A stretch of 64,000 nucleotides of DNA from an uncultured Armatimonadia bacterium (lineage in GTDB: Bacteria; Armatimonadota; Zipacnadia; Zipacnadales; UBA11051). This document shows, piece by piece, positions 33,001-45,000 of the stretch. Position numbers: made by a program. How positions within the stretch are numbered: position 1 is the stretch's first letter; the number at the start of each line of letters is the position of its first letter. The stretch covers positions 2,094-66,093 of the forward strand of contig CAZJVY010000002.1 in the NCBI GenBank assembly GCA_964549395.1. The letters are read 5' to 3'.

Positions 33001-36000
33001 TGCGCATGGTAATCGGGTCCTCGACATCCAGGCATAGCACTGTCGGGATCTTGGTCACGCTGCATTACCCCTGGTTAGTGTCTTCCAGCGACACGGATAA
33101 TGGCCCCCGGCACTGCGTCTGCGGTCACGATCCAATCGTCTCCGTCACGCGCCACCGAGTAGACGTTGCTGCGGAGCCGGCCGCCCCTGGGTGCTGTGGA
33201 CACAAACTCCACCTGCGGCTCTCCGACGCTGTGGAGGCCTACTACACGGAAACTGAGCCGGCTGTTGATGACGCCCATCGGCCACTGGCCCGCAATCTCG
33301 AACTGCACCCCATCAGCGTCGGCCTCAATGACACTGACTGACAGCACGCGGCGCAGAAGCACGTAGTCAATCACATCATCCGGCTTGGCTGCCCAGAGTC
33401 TTCCGCCCGAAATGTCCCGGAGCTTCTCAAATCGCCGCGTCAGGTCCTGCGGGGTGATGCACTTGCGGGATTGCGGCACGTTCCACATCACCAGATGGGT
33501 GGTCTCGTAGAGCCAGGTGCCGTCAAGAAACGCCGGATCGAGATTGTCGGTGAGGAGTCCGTCCTTCCAGTCATAGGCGTCGGATATCTTGCCCGAGGCC
33601 ACCATGAAGTTGCCGATCTTGTACAGATCGAAGTCGCCGCGATTGGGGCCGCCGTCAATGTAGGCACATGCCAGGTAGTGCTGCTTCACCAGATCAATCA
33701 CCGGGTCGTAGTTGTACTTGTCGTTGGGTATGGTGAAGATGCGGACGGGGCAATCGAGCGTGTCCTCCAGGCGGTATTTGCTCCACACGACCTCCCGCCA
33801 AAGGTCCAGGCCCGGCTGTGTCGGGTACACATAGTGCGACCACGAGTGGTTGCCCACACCCCAGCCGCGCTCCAGGAGGAACTTGAGTTCCTCAACGCTC
33901 ATGTGCATGTATTCGTTTAGCGAGCTGCCGTATGCGTGGCGTTGCTGTCCGAGCTGTCCGGCCACCACGTCCACATGCCCCGGGAAGCCGAATTCCTGGT
34001 GCACGGGCAAGGCGTTCGCCAGCGCGTCCACCGTGCCCTCATCGTAGGTCATGGAATACGCGAATGGGGCATCCCCGGGCCAGGTGCAGATGCGAACCTG
34101 CGGCGTCTTCTCTTGCATGCCGACTCTCCCCGCTCTTACAGTGCGGTCATGTGCGGTCGAACTGTTCCGCTCGCACCATCGCGTTGATCAGATTGAGAAT
34201 GAGGCGTCCCGCAGTGCGCGCACCCAGACCGAACAGGTCGTGCTCCGGAGTGAACTCGACCAGGTCCATCCCCACAACGCGGCCCTTGGCGGCCAGACCG
34301 CGCAGCAGGTCAACCGCCTCCGCGAAGCTCAGCCCCCCCGGCTCTGGATCGCTGCACGCGGGCATGATGGCGACGTCCAGGCCGTCAACGTCCATCGTGA
34401 TGAAGTAGTCGGCGGCGTCAGGTATCTCATCAAGGATTGCCTGCATGCCGCGATCGTGGACTTCGCGCTCTCCAAAGAGCAGGTGTCCGGCGGCCCTCGC
34501 TTCCTGCAAGTCGCTGCTAAGGGAACCGCCGACGCCGCTGAGCCCAATCTGAACGACCTGCTCAACCCAGGCCATCTCGGAGATGCGCCTCATCGGGCTG
34601 CTATAGCCCTCCCGGATGCCGTTGACATCGTCCTTGAAGTCAAGGTGCTGGTCAACCTGCACCACGACGATGGGGCCGTACTCCTCGTAGGCGCGCACCA
34701 CGGGGATCGGGATGGAATCGTCTCCGCCGAAGATAAAGGGCACCCCGCCACGGGACAAGATCGTCTTCACGGTATCTGTGGCCCTCTGCACGGTTGCGGG
34801 AATATCCATCGGATTTCCGGGCACATCGCCACAGTCCACGAGGCGCACATCCCGGCCGTCAAGCAGCTCGCCGCCGAAGTCGAAGTTGTGCCCGCCGATC
34901 AGCGACCGACGGAACCGCGATGATATCCGGCGCAGGTAGCGAGGCGCATCAAAGGTCCACGACTGCCCCATCGTGTAGGGAACTCCGTAAGGTATGCCGA
35001 GAAACGCGATATCGGCCTCCAGTGACTGCAGTTCGGTCACCTGGGGCACGTCCAGGAATGTCTTGAAGCCACTAGCAGCAGGAATCGTCATCGGCGGTTC
35101 CTCCTCTGCGCGGGCGGCCTAGCGGTACGTCCCGTAGCGCTGTATCGCCGCGCTCATGGCGCGAACGTTCTCAACCTTCATGTCAGCCGTGAGGCTGTTG
35201 GATGACGAGATGATGTAGCCGCCGCCGGCACCGATCTGCTCGATTCTGTCGCGCACCTGTGCCGTAATCTCCTGCGGCGTCTTGTGCACCAGATCATCCA
35301 TGAAGATGTTCCCGACCAGGCAGATGCGGTCGCCGTAGTCGGCCTTCACCTGATTGATGTCCATCACGTCGGGCTGGATCGGGTGGATCGCCACCTGGCC
35401 GATACTCAGCCAGTCATCAAGTACCGGCGTCATGTCGCCGTCGCTGTGGCATATCAGCGGCAGTTCCAGAGCCTCGGCCGCTTCCCGCTGTATCGGCAAC
35501 ACCGTTTCGCGGTAGAACTCGGGCGAGAACATCGGTCCCGAGTTGAAGGCGACATCATCGAAGGCCCAGAAGATGTCAAAGCCCAACTCCGCCAGCCGGG
35601 GCGCGATGCGGATCGTCCAGTCCGCGTACATCTGCATAATCTGCACAATCAGATCGGGATCATCGGCCATCGCGTAGGAGAACGCCTGCAGTCCCATCGT
35701 CATGATGGTCGCGCCGATGCCCAGGCGGATCGCCGCCACTGCGCAGAAGTCGTCTCTGTGGGCGATGAATTCGGCGGCGCTGTCGAAGAACCCGGGAGCG
35801 TCCATGTTGGGGAACTGCATCAACTTCAGGTCGTCCTGCGTGTGGACAAGGCCCTCGCCGACAATGACCACGCCCTCCATGCTGGTGCGACCGGCATAGA
35901 CCGGCGCAAAGGCATTCCAGTTGATGTTGTCCTTGCCGAGCGCGCGGCACACCTTCTTCTGCATCTCGGCCAGCTCTGCACCGGAAGCAACGGGTGTGCC

Positions 36001-42000: not shown

Positions 42001-45000
42001 TCATCATGGTGGTCTCCCCCGATGTGGGGCAAGCTGCGATGTCAGGCGAGTCCGCTTCACATGTTGGGGCCGAACAGGACGACGCGCCGCCCGATGCCGA
42101 CGCCAAGCAGGTCCGGCCCGTCCGGCGAGACCCGCAAGGCGTAGTTTTTCACATCCCACACCAGTCGCTCGCCGCCCCACAGGTCACGAATGCGCTGCAG
42201 GGGATGCACGAGAGCGCCACTGCCGTCGTACAGGCCCTGTCCCGCATACGAGGTATTGACCCAGATATGCTGCGGCCCTTCAGGCAGCCATTGCACAGGC
42301 AGCGTCCCCTCCCCTATGTAGTCGGGCTGGATCGTCCACAACCTGTCACCGCGTCCTGAGAAGAGCGTGATGATGCCGAAATTGTTCCAGCGCGTGCCTA
42401 CCAGTACCTGCTGTCCCGGCAAGTCATCGCGCACCTTGCACGATGTCCCCCACTGCGCATGACCGATACGGTGAACGGCGCGCGTGTGGCCCGTCAGCGG
42501 GTCCGTAACATAGACGCCAGCACTGCTGGCAACGATGAAGGCGACAGGATCACACTCCGGGTCATTTGCGAACGATCCGACAACCAGGGAGTCGTAGTGT
42601 CCGGCGCCCCATATCCTGTACATCTCGTGCCCCATGTCATGAACGGCCAGCACCTCCCCGTCGGGCGATACGAGTGTGCCCCCGGCCATCACTTCCGAAC
42701 GCCCGTCGCCGTTGAGGTCCGCCAGGTGTACGGCCCCGATATGGCCGTACGGTGGGGTGACGGTCTGGTGCCAGAGCACGCTCAAGCTACCATCGAAAGC
42801 CCACAGGTCATTGCCGCCCCCCTCCATGTCGCTGCGGCAGTGACGGAGCACAAAATCCACGTCCTGATTACTAGTAAGCCGCCCGGTCTCCACGGAGAGA
42901 ACATAGGGCTGCACCTTCTCCACGTATGGATCATCCGGCAGGGGCACGCGATTGATGATATTGCCCGTGGCTGCGTCCACGGCGATGATTTCGTCAGCCA
43001 CGGCGGCAAGGTACTGGCGCGCGCGGGGCGTCGCCACTTCGTACTTGCGACGCTCGCCGACCAGTGCATAGATGCGCCGCGAGCCATCTACTGCGTCGGT
43101 GGTTGTCCTGAAATCCTTGACGCTCTCTCCGACGTGCCACAGCTGCTTGCCGTCCCACGTGGTCGCCAAGAGGCCTGCCGGCCCGCGCAATAGCAGGTCA
43201 TTGTGTCCCGTTTCGCGGAGGTCAGTGGCGTCCACCAGGTCGTAGTCTTCCGGAAGTTCGATTTGGCCGACCTCCACTGCGGGCGGCACTGCCGCCGCCG
43301 CACGGCTCCTCCGCAGCCGAGCCGCCTCGGCAAGCCGCTCATTCACCCGCTGTTGCGATGCGGTCATGGAAATCCGTAAGTCAAAGAGCCGACACGCTCC
43401 CAGAGCGCGGAAGCCGACCTTGCCACTCCCAATCATCGTGTCCGTCACGCGGAAGTCCACATCAAGCTCAGGGCAGACGGCGCGGATGCCGTCGCCGTCC
43501 AACTCAACGCGCAGTGTCACGATCCGTTCCGCCTGATTGTAGTCGAACAGGTTCAGGTAGTTGACCTGCTGCGCGGCCAGCTCGAACCATTCGTCGTCAA
43601 TGCGGCGATACAGCACCAAGCGCCGCTGGGCCTCCAGGCAAAAGTAGTAATGGCGGCGGATGGTCTCGGCCCGGAAGATAATCCCCGCGCGCGCCACGTC
43701 AATGAACCAACCGTCGTTGGTAGGCCCGGCATGGGTCTCCAGCGTCTGCAGTCGGCACTCCACGCTGTATTCACGCCATGTACGCTCCCCACAGGTGAGT
43801 GCACGCTCGTTGCCCAGTTCGAGCGGCCTCGCAGTGGCGTTGTCCTTATGCCACTCGATAGCCGCGGCGCCCTCGTAGTCAATACGCGTCTTCCCCGAGG
43901 CGGTTCTGCAGCCGCCGCGAGGTGCCAGGGGATCATCCCAGCCGTCGAGCATCTTCCATGAAGCGTGGGCCAGGTCCAGCGGCGGTCCCACCTCGCCATG
44001 AGGCAGTTGCTCGATGGGAAGTCGTACCACGGTGCGCACGACATCAGTCTGGTCCACAATGAGTCGCTCCTTCGACTTGTTATGAGGCATAGAGCGGTCA
44101 CCTGGCGTTGTAGATTCGCCACGCCCTACTTCACGCCTACTTCAGGTAGGAGGATATTGGCCATCGCAGTCAAACCTTCCTACCATGGGTTCTTGCGGGG
44201 CTGCATTATGTGCCCTTACGTTCCGGCAAGTTGGGGAAGGAAAGAAGCAGAATGGCAAATGTCACGAAGCCGCCGGTCGTCCGCTGCCTCATCATATTAT
44301 CTGCATTCAGCGTTGCATGGCAAAGTTGGGGTGAAGATACGGTGGAATGGTACGACACACAGGTGCAGCAAAGCGTTCAGGAACGCGATGAGTACTACAA
44401 GAAGTGGATGGCGTGCGGCAACTTGGGCTGGACATGCCCTGACGGCTCGCCGGGTTACTACGGCTTTACCGATAGCGTAGCTGACGGTCTGGCGGCAATC
44501 TACGAGGCGACGGACAGGGAGTACTACCTGGAGAAGCTGATAGAGTACTGCAGAGCGATAATGGCCCAGGGCAAGGACAACAACGGTGACGGCTACCTGG
44601 ACTATTTCCATTGGATGCCGGACCGGGATCGAGCCCAGGAATACGACAAGTGGGATTACGAGCACTCCTATGCCGCCGCGTGCTACTGTAATATCATGCG
44701 TACCCTGGCGCGCTGTGCGCGGGTGGGCAGGCTCGGGCCGCACTACCAGCGACATAAGGCCGACATTGACGAGATAGCCGCCTTCGTGGACAAGCATGTC
44801 ATCGAGAAGTGGGAAAAAGGCGAGCAAGAGCTGTCTCTGGAGCAGTACCTCAACCTGACCAGCTTCACCATCAACGGCGTACACTCGCATCTAGGCTCTC
44901 TTCTGGTTGACGCCTGGTTGGCCACCGGCAACCAGCACTATCGAGATTTGGCCGCTGCTTTCGCCGAGAAGGTGAAGGCGGCGTGGGTGCTTTACAGCAA

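What the first reader, a model, noticed from the sequence alone, without database searches (positions are those of the whole stretch)
33075..44090. Accessory cluster combining Gfo/Idh/MocA oxidoreductase, DUF1080 protein, DegT aminotransferase, two CE4 deacetylases, a ureohydrolase and a URO-D-like enzyme: candidate oxidative / amino-sugar glycan processing pathway
Gfo/Idh/MocA oxidoreductases paired with DUF1080 (3-keto-glycoside hydrolase/lyase) proteins define the recently described oxidative glycoside-cleavage route. Here the pair co-occurs with a DegT-type sugar aminotransferase, two NodB-type deacetylases, an arginase/agmatinase-family ureohydrolase, an isochorismatase-like hydrolase, a PF12831 FAD oxidoreductase and a URO-D-like protein. 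The URO-D-like protein would normally need a corrinoid partner in this family, and none is present. The mix suggests processing of an N-acetylated, possibly guanidino- or amino-substituted sugar. No characterised pathway with exactly this composition is known to me.
Basis: inference. Interest (0 to 1): 0.6.

Follow-up and report, generated by a model that had tools for sequence, protein, structure and literature searches.

The report
Conserved amino-sugar breakdown operon, function untested

Summary
The gene block is real. Eleven same-strand ORFs run from 44090 to 31658, most separated by 50 bases or fewer.

Two calls fail. There is no DUF1080 match at the HMM level, and only one CE4 lies in the interval.

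Comparison with about 130 related loci splits the block in two:
- **Conserved module:** CE4–DegT forms the core, with isochorismatase-like, cytoplasmic Gfo and URO-D-like genes. It occurs across Armatimonadota, Planctomycetota, Verrucomicrobiota (including Kiritimatiellae and Lentisphaerae), Chloroflexota, Poribacteria and others. It often sits beside heparinase II/III-like or FG-GAP proteins and AraC regulators.
- **Lineage-specific additions:** arginase family, Ppx/GppA, PF12831, the lectin-propeller protein and an orphan 466-aa ORF.

The URO-D-like protein has an MtaA/HemE fold. Its nearest paralogs are fused to corrinoid-binding domains, yet no corrinoid protein lies in the window or any related locus.

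The best reading is cytoplasmic catabolism of a decorated N-acetyl amino sugar: deacetylate, transaminate, reduce. Substrate and URO-D chemistry are unknown. No member has been characterised.

The parts
42057..44090 (-). 677-aa ORF (666 aa from position 44057 in the metagenome gene call). It has an N-terminal ConA-like beta-sandwich (lectin/CBM-like) and a C-terminal FG-GAP/PQQ-like propeller. It is an Armatimonadota-specific accessory gene.
   Evidence: - Pfam gives weak FG-GAP_3 and PQQ_2 hits.
- It has 47 homologs, none carrying PF06439.
- The AF2 model of residues 1-262 has pLDDT 90.
- The best Foldseek match is CBM66 4b1m, TM 0.73 on the target.
- It is absent from related loci.
40721..42106 (-). 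PF12831 FAD-dependent oxidoreductase. The likely true start is at 42007, giving 428 aa. It is a lineage-restricted accessory gene.
   Evidence: - Pfam PF12831 scores 420 bits.
- The metagenome gene call gives 428 aa.
- It lies near the URO-D-like gene in only 4 of 24 full-flank loci.
40429..40677 (-). 82-aa ORF matching only the C-terminal quarter of the URO-D model. It is probably the remnant of a second URO-D-family gene.
   Evidence: - Pfam URO-D scores 28.9 bits over profile positions 272-346.
- It was called as an 80-aa gene in L001.
- It is about 35% identical to the C-terminus of the main URO-D-like proteins.
39443..40387 (-). Ppx/GppA-family phosphatase-like protein (314 aa). It may be unrelated housekeeping.
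   Evidence: - Pfam scores 126 bits.
- TIGR03706 scores 161.7 against a cut-off of 307.
- It is present only in close relatives: L008, L009 and L013, and L069 and L071.
38264..39226 (-). Cytoplasmic Gfo/Idh/MocA NAD(P) oxidoreductase, the first gene of the tight seven-gene unit. Its proposed role is ketone/hydroxyl interconversion on the sugar.
   Evidence: - Pfam matches the family.
- The iolG model scores 104 against a cut-off of 355.
- PDB best hits are inositol dehydrogenases and 1,5-anhydrofructose reductase at about 75 bits.
- DKP, D173 and H178 are conserved in 15 orthologs.
- No signal peptide is visible by eye.
36964..38217 (-). DegT/DnrJ/EryC1-type PLP aminotransferase. It is the most conserved member of the module.
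   Evidence: - Pfam scores 225 bits.
- No NCBIfam equivalog reaches its cut-off.
- The PDB best hit is perosamine synthetase at 158 bits.
- Orthologs are 67-80% identical across phyla.
- The SFDSEK lysine motif was read by eye.
36141..36926 (-). Divergent isochorismatase-like (cysteine hydrolase) protein. Its proposed role is removing a second amide or acyl substituent.
   Evidence: - Pfam scores 34 bits over a partial match.
- Weak RutB and BiuH similarity.
- Cys192 and the flanking motif are conserved in 18 orthologs.
- It is the second most frequent neighbour of DegT after CE4.
35119..36144 (-). URO-D/MtaA-fold protein (341 aa) of a highly conserved orthogroup with no characterised member.
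   Evidence: - Pfam scores 86 bits.
- The AF2 model has pLDDT 90.
- Foldseek gives MtaA at TM 0.74-0.76 and HemE at about 0.74, with 14-18% identity.
- Orthologs are 51-87% identical in 50 loci.
- It has an HSDG motif in place of the MtaA H-x-C motif.
- Corrinoid-fused paralogs exist.
- No corrinoid ORF lies nearby.
34147..35091 (-). Arginase/agmatinase-family ureohydrolase. It is a lineage-specific accessory gene and is not an SpeB equivalog.
   Evidence: - Pfam scores 178 bits.
- TIGR01230 scores 121.5 against a cut-off of 174.3.
- The PDB best hit is agmatinase 1wog at 133 bits.
- The motif reads GGDDS instead of GGDHS; the DxHxD, DxD and E ligands are kept.
- It occurs in only 2 of 24 full-flank loci.
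33075..34118 (-). CE4-family deacetylase (a long form with a C-terminal extension). It is the core partner of DegT.
   Evidence: - Pfam scores 37 bits against a cut-off of 23.
- The TYDEG, H91-x3-H95 and H208 motifs are conserved in 19 orthologs.
- It sits directly upstream of DegT in at least 28 of 65 DegT-anchored loci.
31658..33058 (-). 466-aa orphan ORF, the last gene of the unit.
   Evidence: - No Pfam, NCBIfam or PDB sequence match.
- It was found only on contigs of the same organism.

Best explanation
The block is a cytoplasmic catabolic operon for a decorated N-acetylated amino sugar or amino-sugar acid. The sugar is probably released by the nearby heparinase II/III-like and FG-GAP/propeller proteins.

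**Proposed steps in the conserved core**
1. The CE4 enzyme removes the N-acetyl group.
2. The DegT-type PLP aminotransferase converts the freed amine to a ketone.
3. The cytoplasmic Gfo/Idh/MocA enzyme reduces that ketone to a hydroxyl, giving an ordinary sugar that enters central metabolism.

**Optional trimming functions.** The isochorismatase-like cysteine hydrolase and the URO-D/MtaA-fold protein would remove further substituents: a second amide, and possibly a methyl or carboxyl group.

**Additions specific to this Armatimonadota lineage.** These are the arginase-family enzyme (which would remove an amidino or guanidino group), Ppx/GppA, the PF12831 flavoprotein, the lectin-propeller protein and the 466-aa orphan.

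**Shown:** gene content, operon geometry, cross-phylum co-localisation and retention of catalytic motifs.

**Inferred:** the direction (catabolic), the order of steps, the substrate class and every individual chemistry.
For: **Operon geometry**
- Eleven same-strand ORFs. Seven have gaps of -4 to 47 nt.
- None has an N-terminal signal peptide by eye.

**Co-localisation round the URO-D-like gene**
- Of 24 URO-D-anchored loci with at least 6 kb on both sides, 11 carry DegT, 11 carry CE4 and 14 carry a Gfo gene. DegT and CE4 occur together in 14 of 50 loci.

**Co-localisation round DegT**
- Of 65 DegT-anchored metagenome loci, 28 carry CE4, 18 an isochorismatase-like gene, 12 Gfo and 7 the URO-D-like gene. 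The usual order is CE4-DegT-Iso.

**Taxonomic spread.** Module-bearing loci come from Armatimonadota, Planctomycetota, Verrucomicrobiota (including Kiritimatiellae and Lentisphaerales), Anaerolineae and Poribacteria. One further locus was binned as Paceibacterota.

**Sequence conservation**
- DegT is 67-80% identical across phyla.
- The URO-D-like protein is 51-87% identical.

**Catabolic flavour of the neighbourhoods**
- AraC or GntR-SBP regulators.
- Heparinase II/III-like or DUF4962 proteins.
- FG-GAP propellers and LamG domains.
- CN-hydrolases.
- S8-like and M14-like peptidases.
- PFK, PGI, an MR_MLE dehydratase and an FGGY kinase next to the module.
- No glycosyltransferase or nucleotidyltransferase was seen among module-adjacent genes in the Pfam-annotated loci.

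**Catalytic motifs are conserved** in CE4, Gfo and the isochorismatase-like protein. The arginase-family protein keeps 5 of 6 metal ligands.
Against: - No member of any of these orthogroups has been characterised, and every NCBIfam equivalog score falls below its cut-off.
- I know of no characterised DegT-family aminotransferase that works catabolically on a free sugar (my own knowledge).
- No transporter, sugar kinase or aldolase is consistently linked to the module.
- All the genomes are uncultured MAGs, so there are no expression or growth data.
- Gfo + DegT pairs are classically biosynthetic: WbpB/WbpE, GnnA/GnnB, NtdC/NtdA and RifL/RifK.
- About half of the URO-D-like loci lack DegT and CE4. 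Many of those carry TAT-signal Gfo proteins, esterases and CN-hydrolases instead, so the URO-D-like enzyme is not tied to one pathway.
- Signal peptides were judged by eye only.
Confidence: 0.45

Rival explanations
1. The Gfo enzyme oxidises a glycoside at C3, and a DUF1080 lyase/hydratase then cleaves it, as in the Bacteroides/Alistipes BT2156-2160 / AL1-4 type pathway.
For: - A Gfo/Idh/MocA gene is present.
- The 677-aa protein begins with a ConA-like beta-sandwich. That fold class also includes GH16 enzymes, to which DUF1080 proteins are structurally similar.
- The bioRxiv authors state that other operons may have varied architectures and may lack DUF1080.
Against: - No PF06439 hit even at E<=10, and none in 47 homologs.
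- The best structural match is CBM66, not a DUF1080 structure.
- The 677-aa protein is absent from all related loci.
- The Gfo protein has no signal or TAT peptide, while the described system is periplasmic with two Gfo enzymes plus a sugar-phosphate-isomerase-like lyase. No such lyase turned up among the window ORFs scanned.
Confidence: 0.05
2. A biosynthetic module. Gfo and DegT make an amino sugar from a nucleotide- or phosphate-activated sugar, like GnnA/GnnB, WbpB/WbpE or NtdC/NtdA, for the cell's own envelope glycan or a secondary metabolite. CE4 acts as a tailoring deacetylase.
For: - All characterised Gfo + DegT pairs are biosynthetic (my own knowledge).
- The DegT protein's nearest solved relatives are NDP-sugar aminotransferases.
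- An Arn-type lipid A modification operon lies 3 kb away in the window.
Against: - No glycosyltransferase, nucleotidyltransferase, flippase or polymerase sits next to the module in the Pfam-annotated loci.
- Module neighbours are hydrolases, lyase-like proteins and AraC/GntR regulators.
- Glycolytic genes lie adjacent in two phyla.
- The Arn operon is on the other strand, is complete on its own, and is not conserved next to the module elsewhere.
Confidence: 0.15
3. Catabolism of an aminocyclitol or methyl-inosamine, rhizopine-like. The URO-D/MtaA-like protein would demethylate an O-methyl group, DegT would convert inosamine to inosose, and the IolG-like Gfo enzyme would link to inositol metabolism.
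For: - The Gfo protein's best NCBIfam and PDB matches are inositol 2-dehydrogenases.
- The DegT family includes scyllo-inosose aminotransferases, which score about 105-111 bits.
- The nearest paralogs of the URO-D-like protein are corrinoid-domain fusions typical of methyltransferases, and they share its putative active-site residues.
Against: - All the similarities are weak and fall below family cut-offs.
- No corrinoid protein is present anywhere.
- No iol genes were seen in the Pfam-annotated loci.
- The CE4 and lyase-like context points to polysaccharide-derived N-acetyl sugars.
Confidence: 0.1
4. The 11-kb interval is not one pathway. It joins a conserved four- to five-gene module with unrelated neighbours (Ppx/GppA, PF12831, the lectin-propeller protein, the arginase-family gene) that travel with it only through shared descent in one lineage.
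For: - Arginase-family, Ppx/GppA, PF12831 and the 415-aa neighbour co-occur only in close Armatimonadota relatives.
- A 217-nt gap separates Ppx from Gfo.
- Ppx/GppA has a plausible housekeeping role.
Against: - All genes are on the same strand and no terminator-like site separates them. The two sites found lie inside genes, and their count is below the shuffle expectation.
- The URO-D-Arg-CE4 order is kept in five loci.
- This rival is compatible with the best explanation rather than exclusive of it.
Confidence: 0.25

Closest known systems
Gfo/Idh/MocA + DegT amino-sugar pairs (WbpB/WbpE, GnnA/GnnB, NtdC/NtdA, RifL/RifK)
   Same: An NAD(P) oxidoreductase of the Gfo/Idh/MocA family sits next to a DegT-type PLP aminotransferase. 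Together they interconvert hydroxyl, ketone and amine on a sugar carbon.
   Different: - The known pairs are biosynthetic and act on UDP-sugars or sugar phosphates.
- Here the pair travels with deacetylase and amidase genes, lyase-like proteins and AraC regulators, and without glycosyltransferases.
- Sequence similarity to any characterised pair is only about 25-30%, below the NCBIfam cut-offs.
Oxidative 3-keto-glycoside cleavage clusters (BT2156-2160 / AL1-AL4; bioRxiv 10.1101/2024.03.25.586180; PMC8121099)
   Same: Both use a Gfo/Idh/MocA oxidoreductase in a glycan-processing context.
   Different: - No DUF1080 protein.
- No sugar-phosphate-isomerase-like lyase.
- A cytoplasmic rather than periplasmic Gfo enzyme.
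- An aminotransferase and deacetylase are present instead.
MtaA/CmuA-type corrinoid methyltransferases and HemE (URO-D superfamily)
   Same: - The same (beta/alpha)8 fold, TM 0.74-0.76.
- The nearest paralogs at 31-38% identity have the CmuA-like fusion to B12-binding domains and share the HSDG, DD and N279/Y310/N316 residues.
   Different: - The zinc-binding H-x-C...C motif of MtaA reads H-S-D...SSSNS.
- No corrinoid protein lies in 64 kb or in any related locus.
- Only 14-18% identity to HemE or MtaA.
- NCBIfam scores are 60-67 against cut-offs of 235-400.
Arn (L-Ara4N lipid A) pathway
   Same: It also combines a DegT aminotransferase (ArnB) and a CE4 enzyme (ArnD). A complete copy lies at 47033-53765 in this window.
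   Different: - It is a separate operon on the other strand with its own ArnT, GT2, formyltransferase and SDR genes.
- The finding's DegT and CE4 are distinct paralogs.
- The module recurs elsewhere without arn genes.
Agmatinase, guanidinobutyrase and guanidinopropionase (arginase family)
   Same: The fold and five of six metal ligands match. The best PDB hits are 1wog, 3nio and 3nip.
   Different: - It scores below the SpeB equivalog cut-off (121.5 against 174.3).
- The first His ligand is replaced by Asp.
- No polyamine genes lie nearby.
- It is restricted to one lineage of the module.

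Membership tests
Oxidative 3-keto-glycoside cleavage cluster (BT2156-2160 / AL1-4) | A DUF1080 (PF06439) lyase/hydratase | tested here: not met
   - No PF06439 hit for any ORF.
- The N-terminal 261 aa of the 677-aa protein gave none at E<=10.
- None of its 47 homologs carries PF06439.
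- Structurally it is only a generic ConA-like sandwich whose best match is CBM66.
Oxidative 3-keto-glycoside cleavage cluster (BT2156-2160 / AL1-4) | Periplasmic (signal- or TAT-bearing) Gfo/Idh/MocA oxidoreductases, usually two | tested here: not met
   There is a single Gfo gene. Its N-terminus, MVRKVGIVGGETH, runs straight into the Rossmann fold with no signal peptide. This was read by eye, with no predictor run.
Oxidative 3-keto-glycoside cleavage cluster (BT2156-2160 / AL1-4) | A sugar-phosphate-isomerase-like (xylose-isomerase-type TIM barrel) 3-keto-glycoside lyase | tested here: not met
   No such Pfam family appeared among the 40 largest window ORFs scanned.
HemE (true uroporphyrinogen decarboxylase) | A full-length match to HemE models and close sequence similarity | tested here: not met
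   - The Pfam URO-D model matches only residues 151-337.
- No hemE model in NCBIfam scored at E<=0.01.
- Identity to HemE structures is 13-18%.
MtaA/CmuA corrinoid methyltransferases | The URO-D/MtaA (beta/alpha)8 fold | tested here: met
   The AF2 model has pLDDT 90. It matches 4ay7/4ay8 at TM 0.74-0.76, E about 1e-17.
MtaA/CmuA corrinoid methyltransferases | The zinc site His-x-Cys ... Cys | tested here: not met
   - The HMM alignment to 4ay7 puts H233-S-D235 opposite the H-I-C motif.
- The region expected to hold the third ligand reads SSSNS, judged by position.
- The corrinoid-fused paralogs also have HSDG, so this feature may not be required in this clade.
MtaA/CmuA corrinoid methyltransferases | A cognate corrinoid-binding protein or domain | tested here: not met
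   phmmer with three B12-binding modules against six-frame ORFs of the whole window and about 68 loci gave no hit at E<1e-3. A partner encoded elsewhere in the genome cannot be excluded.
MtaA/CmuA corrinoid methyltransferases | A score above the curated family cut-off | tested here: not met
   TIGR01463 scores 60.1 against 235.4, and NF040654 scores 63.6 against 400.
SpeB agmatinase | A score above the equivalog cut-off and a polyamine context | tested here: not met
   TIGR01230 scores 121.5 against 174.3, and NF002564 scores 113 against 302. No polyamine genes appeared among the window ORFs scanned.
Arginase/ureohydrolase superfamily | The binuclear metal ligand set (H, DxHxD, DxD, E/D) | tested here: inconclusive
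   Five of six ligands are kept. GGDHS reads GGDDS in the alignment to 1wog, 3nio and 3nip.
CE4 polysaccharide deacetylase | A Pfam score above the gathering cut-off and the Asp / His-His metal-and-base motifs | tested here: met
   PF01522 scores 37.2 against 23.1. The TYDEG, H91...H95 and H208 motifs are conserved in 19 orthologs of 20-84% identity.
DegT/DnrJ/EryC1 aminotransferase | A Pfam match and the PLP-binding lysine | tested here: met
   PF01041 scores 224.8. K201 in SFDSEK is invariant in 15 orthologs. Its assignment as the PLP lysine is by motif, from my own knowledge.
Isochorismatase-like hydrolase | The Asp-Lys-Cys catalytic triad | tested here: inconclusive
   - The Pfam match is partial: 34.3 bits over residues 167-220.
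- Cys192 in the DMC motif is conserved.
- The canonical Asp and Lys positions could not be assigned in the divergent N-terminal half.

The most novel reading that the evidence does not exclude
The CE4-DegT(-Iso-Gfo-URO-D-like) module is a previously undescribed cytoplasmic pathway. Through it, uncultured, mostly anaerobic glycan degraders of many phyla would convert decorated N-acyl amino sugars, for example from bacterial cell-surface glycans, into ordinary sugars by 'reverse' transamination. The URO-D/MtaA-fold enzyme would be a stand-alone descendant of corrinoid methyltransferases. It would work without a dedicated corrinoid protein, either as a sugar O/N-demethylase using a shared or free corrinoid or with a new chemistry.
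Probability: 0.3. Interest if true: 0.7.

Novelty: new variant of a known kind. Interest (0 to 1): 0.5.

Why it matters
If the reading is right, this is a widespread and so far unrecognised way for uncultured sediment, groundwater and digester bacteria to recycle amino sugars. It would use a DegT-type aminotransferase in the catabolic direction. That would add a route for carbon and nitrogen turnover from microbial necromass and complex glycans.

It also gives a concrete handle on two large families now annotated only generically. One is 'uroporphyrinogen decarboxylase family protein': about 6,650 cluster representatives match at E<1e-3, and this orthogroup is 51-87% identical across phyla. 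The other is a DegT orthogroup that is more than 70% identical across phyla.

Practically, the DUF1080 and oxidative-cleavage label should not be propagated to this locus.

Tried and rejected
- **DUF1080 in the 677-aa protein.** Pfam at E<=10, the precomputed Pfam of 47 homologs, and AF2 plus Foldseek showed only a generic ConA-like/CBM66-like sandwich.\n- **The 466-aa ORF as a second CE4.** An LDVED...HSSRH motif was seen by eye. BLASTP against the CE4 protein, Pfam at E<=10 and a PDB phmmer search found nothing.\n- **True HemE or SpeB housekeeping roles.** Rejected on cut-offs and context.\n- **Riboswitch upstream (cobalamin, guanidine).** Rfam found nothing at gathering threshold over the whole window, or at E<=1 over 38800-44600.\n- **Corrinoid partner.** None was found.\n- **Promoter and terminator scan.** Counts were at or below the shuffle expectation, so it was uninformative.\n- **Literature searches.** Searches for URO-D-like proteins in carbohydrate clusters and for catabolic DegT pathways returned nothing relevant.\n- **The 415-aa divergent neighbour (44210-45457).** No Pfam or PDB match.\n- **PuuE-type allantoinase reading of the CE4 protein.** No PDB sequence hit at E<=0.01; I recall PuuE structures being in the PDB.\n- **AFDB fold library.** It was unavailable.\n- **Substrate guesses.** Nonulosonic acids, N-acetyl-hexosaminuronic acids, GlcNAc via glucosone and methyl-inosamine were considered. 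None could be tested.

Full report
**What is in the sequence**

The minus strand between 44090 and 31658 carries eleven consecutive ORFs. The seven distal ones have gaps of -4 to 47 nt. A 217-nt gap separates Ppx/GppA from Gfo. HMM searches give the following assignments:

| Coordinates | Assignment | Score |
|---|---|---|
| 42057-44090 | 677-aa protein, weak FG-GAP/PQQ hits | below cut-offs |
| 40721-42106 | PF12831 flavoprotein | 420 bits |
| 40429-40677 | 82-aa URO-D C-terminal fragment | 28.9 bits |
| 39443-40387 | Ppx/GppA | 126 bits |
| 38264-39226 | Gfo/Idh/MocA | 78 bits (best domain) |
| 36964-38217 | DegT | 225 bits |
| 36141-36926 | isochorismatase-like | 34 bits, partial |
| 35119-36144 | URO-D-like | 86 bits, C-terminal half only |
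| 34147-35091 | arginase family | 178 bits |
| 33075-34118 | CE4 | 37 bits |
| 31658-33058 | 466-aa orphan | no match |

None of these proteins reaches an NCBIfam equivalog cut-off. None shows an N-terminal signal peptide by eye.

Seven of the nine families are right. DUF1080 is not.
- No PF06439 hit was found, even for the N-terminal 261 aa of the 677-aa protein at E<=10.
- None of that protein's 47 homologs carries PF06439.
- The AF2 model of the domain (pLDDT 90) is a ConA-like beta-sandwich. Its best match is CBM66; 4jqt/BT3469, which I recall (not checked) as a DUF1080 structure, ranks only ninth.

Only one CE4 lies in the interval. The window's second CE4 and second DegT belong to a complete Arn-like operon on the other strand at 47033-53765. 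That operon holds ArnT, ArnB, a GT2, a formyltransferase, an SDR and ArnD, followed by an OmpR/histidine-kinase pair.

**Origin**

The exact URO-D-like protein occurs on seven metagenome contigs. The closest genome hits, at 80-87% identity, are Armatimonadota MAGs (Ca. Zipacnadia, Armatimonadia). All relatives found in the species-representative genome set are MAGs, apart from a 33%-identical paralog in Lactonifactor.

**Conservation round the URO-D-like gene**

The URO-D-like orthogroup (51-87% identity) was found in 50 loci. They come from Armatimonadota, KSB1, Planctomycetota, Verrucomicrobiota (including Kiritimatiellae, Lentisphaerales and Opitutaceae), Gemmatimonadota, Latescibacterota and Anaerolineae.

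Among the 24 loci with at least 6 kb on both flanks, the neighbours are:

| Neighbour family | Loci of 24 |
|---|---|
| DegT | 11 |
| CE4 | 11 |
| any Gfo | 14 |
| CN-hydrolase | 8 |
| esterase | 6 |
| isochorismatase-like | 5 |
| S8-like peptidase | 4 |
| PF12831 | 4 |
| arginase family | 2 |
| Ppx/GppA | 2 |

**Conservation round DegT**

The DegT orthogroup is at least 72% identical in its 120 best protein clusters. Of 65 DegT-anchored metagenome loci, 28 carry CE4, 18 an isochorismatase-like gene, 12 Gfo and 7 the URO-D-like gene. The usual gene order is CE4-DegT-Iso.

The interval therefore splits in two. One part is a cross-phylum module: a CE4-DegT core with Iso, cytoplasmic Gfo and the URO-D-like gene. 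The other part is additions confined to this Armatimonadota lineage: the arginase-family gene, Ppx/GppA, PF12831, the lectin-propeller protein and the orphan.

**Context of the module elsewhere**

- AraC or GntR-SBP regulators.
- Heparinase II/III-like or DUF4962 proteins.
- FG-GAP and lambda-carrageenase-like propellers, and LamG domains.
- CN-hydrolases.
- S8-like and M14-like peptidases.
- GH32.
- Central-metabolism genes next to the module: PFK in Kiritimatiellae, PGI in a planctomycete, and an MR_MLE dehydratase with an FGGY kinase in Poribacteria.

The window itself has a SASA esterase, a 1413-aa CBM/FG-GAP protein and a DUF4962/heparinase-like protein at 19.7-28.2 kb. No glycosyltransferase or nucleotidyltransferase lies adjacent to the module in the Pfam-annotated loci. 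This pattern favours catabolism of a glycan-derived N-acetyl amino sugar over biosynthesis.

**The enzymes look competent**

- CE4 keeps the TYDEG, H91-x3-H95 and H208 motifs across 19 orthologs.
- Gfo keeps DKP, D173 and H178.
- The isochorismatase-like protein keeps Cys192.
- DegT keeps K201.
- The arginase-family protein keeps five of six metal ligands, with GGDHS changed to GGDDS.

**The URO-D-like protein**

- The AF2 model (pLDDT 90) matches MtaA at TM 0.74-0.76 and HemE at about 0.74, with 14-18% identity.
- By sequence it reaches only CdmB (E 1.6e-6) and MtaA (E 1.5e-4) in the PDB. H-S-D aligns opposite MtaA's zinc-binding H-x-C.
- An exhaustive representative search finds 6,651 cluster representatives at E<1e-3. 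The orthogroup is essentially one 50% cluster.
- Several of the nearest paralogs (31-38% identity) are fused to B12-binding_2 and B12-binding domains, the CmuA-like architecture. They share the putative active-site residues D196, D197, H233-S-D235, N279, Y310, N316 and N326.
- No B12-binding ORF exists in the 64-kb window or in about 68 related loci, and no riboswitch was found.
- The Lactonifactor paralog sits in a GntR-LarA-TRAP operon, which points to an acidic substrate.

The chemistry stays open. It could be corrinoid-dependent demethylation with a partner encoded elsewhere, decarboxylation, or something new.

**Comparison with known systems**

- The oxidative 3-keto-glycoside route needs periplasmic Gfo enzymes, a sugar-phosphate-isomerase-like lyase and usually DUF1080. 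None of these features is met here.
- The Gfo + DegT pairing resembles WbpB/WbpE, GnnA/GnnB, NtdC/NtdA and RifL/RifK. Those pairs are biosynthetic and only distantly related.
- HemE, SpeB and MtaA memberships fail on curated cut-offs and defining features.

**Verdict**

The cluster is real and non-random. The most likely function is a cytoplasmic deacetylate, transaminate and reduce pathway for a decorated amino sugar, with a confidence of about 0.45. Substrate, direction and the URO-D-like chemistry are all inferred. No member has been characterised, so the module is best classed as a new variant built from known enzyme kinds.

Noticed in passing
window 47033-55701 (+): A complete Arn-like lipid A aminoarabinose operon. 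It runs ArnT-like (47033-48775), DegT/ArnB-like (48745-49932), GT2 (49929-50882), formyltransferase (50879-51814), SDR (51844-52845) and CE4/ArnD-like (52842-53765). An OmpR-type response regulator and a histidine kinase follow at 53741-55701.
   Followed up: partly
window 40429-40677 (-): An 82-aa ORF that matches only the last quarter of the URO-D model. It is wedged between the PF12831 and Ppx/GppA genes, 44 nt from the PF12831 stop. It looks like the remnant of a second URO-D-family gene and is absent at this position in relatives L008, L009 and L069.
   Followed up: partly
P0151, P0152, P0254, P0156: Paralogs of the URO-D-like protein at 31-38% identity are fused to B12-binding_2 and B12-binding domains (CmuA-like). 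They keep the same HSDG and DD motifs. This links a large clade of unannotated 'URO-D family' proteins to corrinoid chemistry.
   Followed up: partly
window 19753-31554: A glycan-degradation and signalling block next to the operon. It holds a SASA esterase, a 1413-aa CBM4_9 + FG-GAP/carrageenase-like propeller protein, a DUF4962 + heparinase II/III-like protein, and then a CHASE2-adenylate cyclase with a FecR-domain protein. The CHASE2-FecR pair is syntenic next to the module in L009, L018 and L070.
   Followed up: partly
L011:11026-12504, also L018, L021, L030, L041, L053, L058, L068: A cytoplasmic S8 subtilase-like protein recurs inside the module in other phyla. By eye, the position of the catalytic serine motif (GTSMAAP) reads GGCMAAG, which suggests a cysteine nucleophile.
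   Followed up: no
window 34147-35091 (-): The arginase-family protein has GGDDS where the family has GGDHS, so the first Mn-ligand His is replaced by Asp. The other five ligands are kept. Its metal or substrate preference may be unusual.
   Followed up: partly
L019, L027, L031, L040, L048, L049 (Verrucomicrobia): The same URO-D-like orthogroup has a second neighbourhood type. It holds two TAT-signal Gfo/Idh/MocA proteins, a TAT esterase, DUF6259 and a tandem CN-hydrolase, with no DegT or CE4.
   Followed up: partly
L060:5034-11053 (Lactonifactor longoviformis): A 33%-identical URO-D-like paralog closes an operon of a GntR/FCD regulator, a LarA-like racemase and a TRAP transporter (DctPQM). 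This suggests an organic-acid or sugar-acid substrate for that paralog.
   Followed up: no
window 31658-33058 (-), 44210-45457 (+), 17100-19673 (+), 59145-63179 (+): Four large ORFs (466, 415, 857 and 1344 aa) have no Pfam match. The 415-aa ORF has a signal-peptide-like N-terminus and is syntenic, divergently transcribed, in L008, L009, L069 and L071. The 466-aa ORF is found only in this organism.
   Followed up: partly
window 5656-12377 (-): A fatty-acid and electron-transfer cluster, unrelated to the finding. It holds a ketoacyl synthase, an acyltransferase, a ferredoxin-fused ETF alpha, ETF beta and an acyl-CoA dehydrogenase.
   Followed up: no
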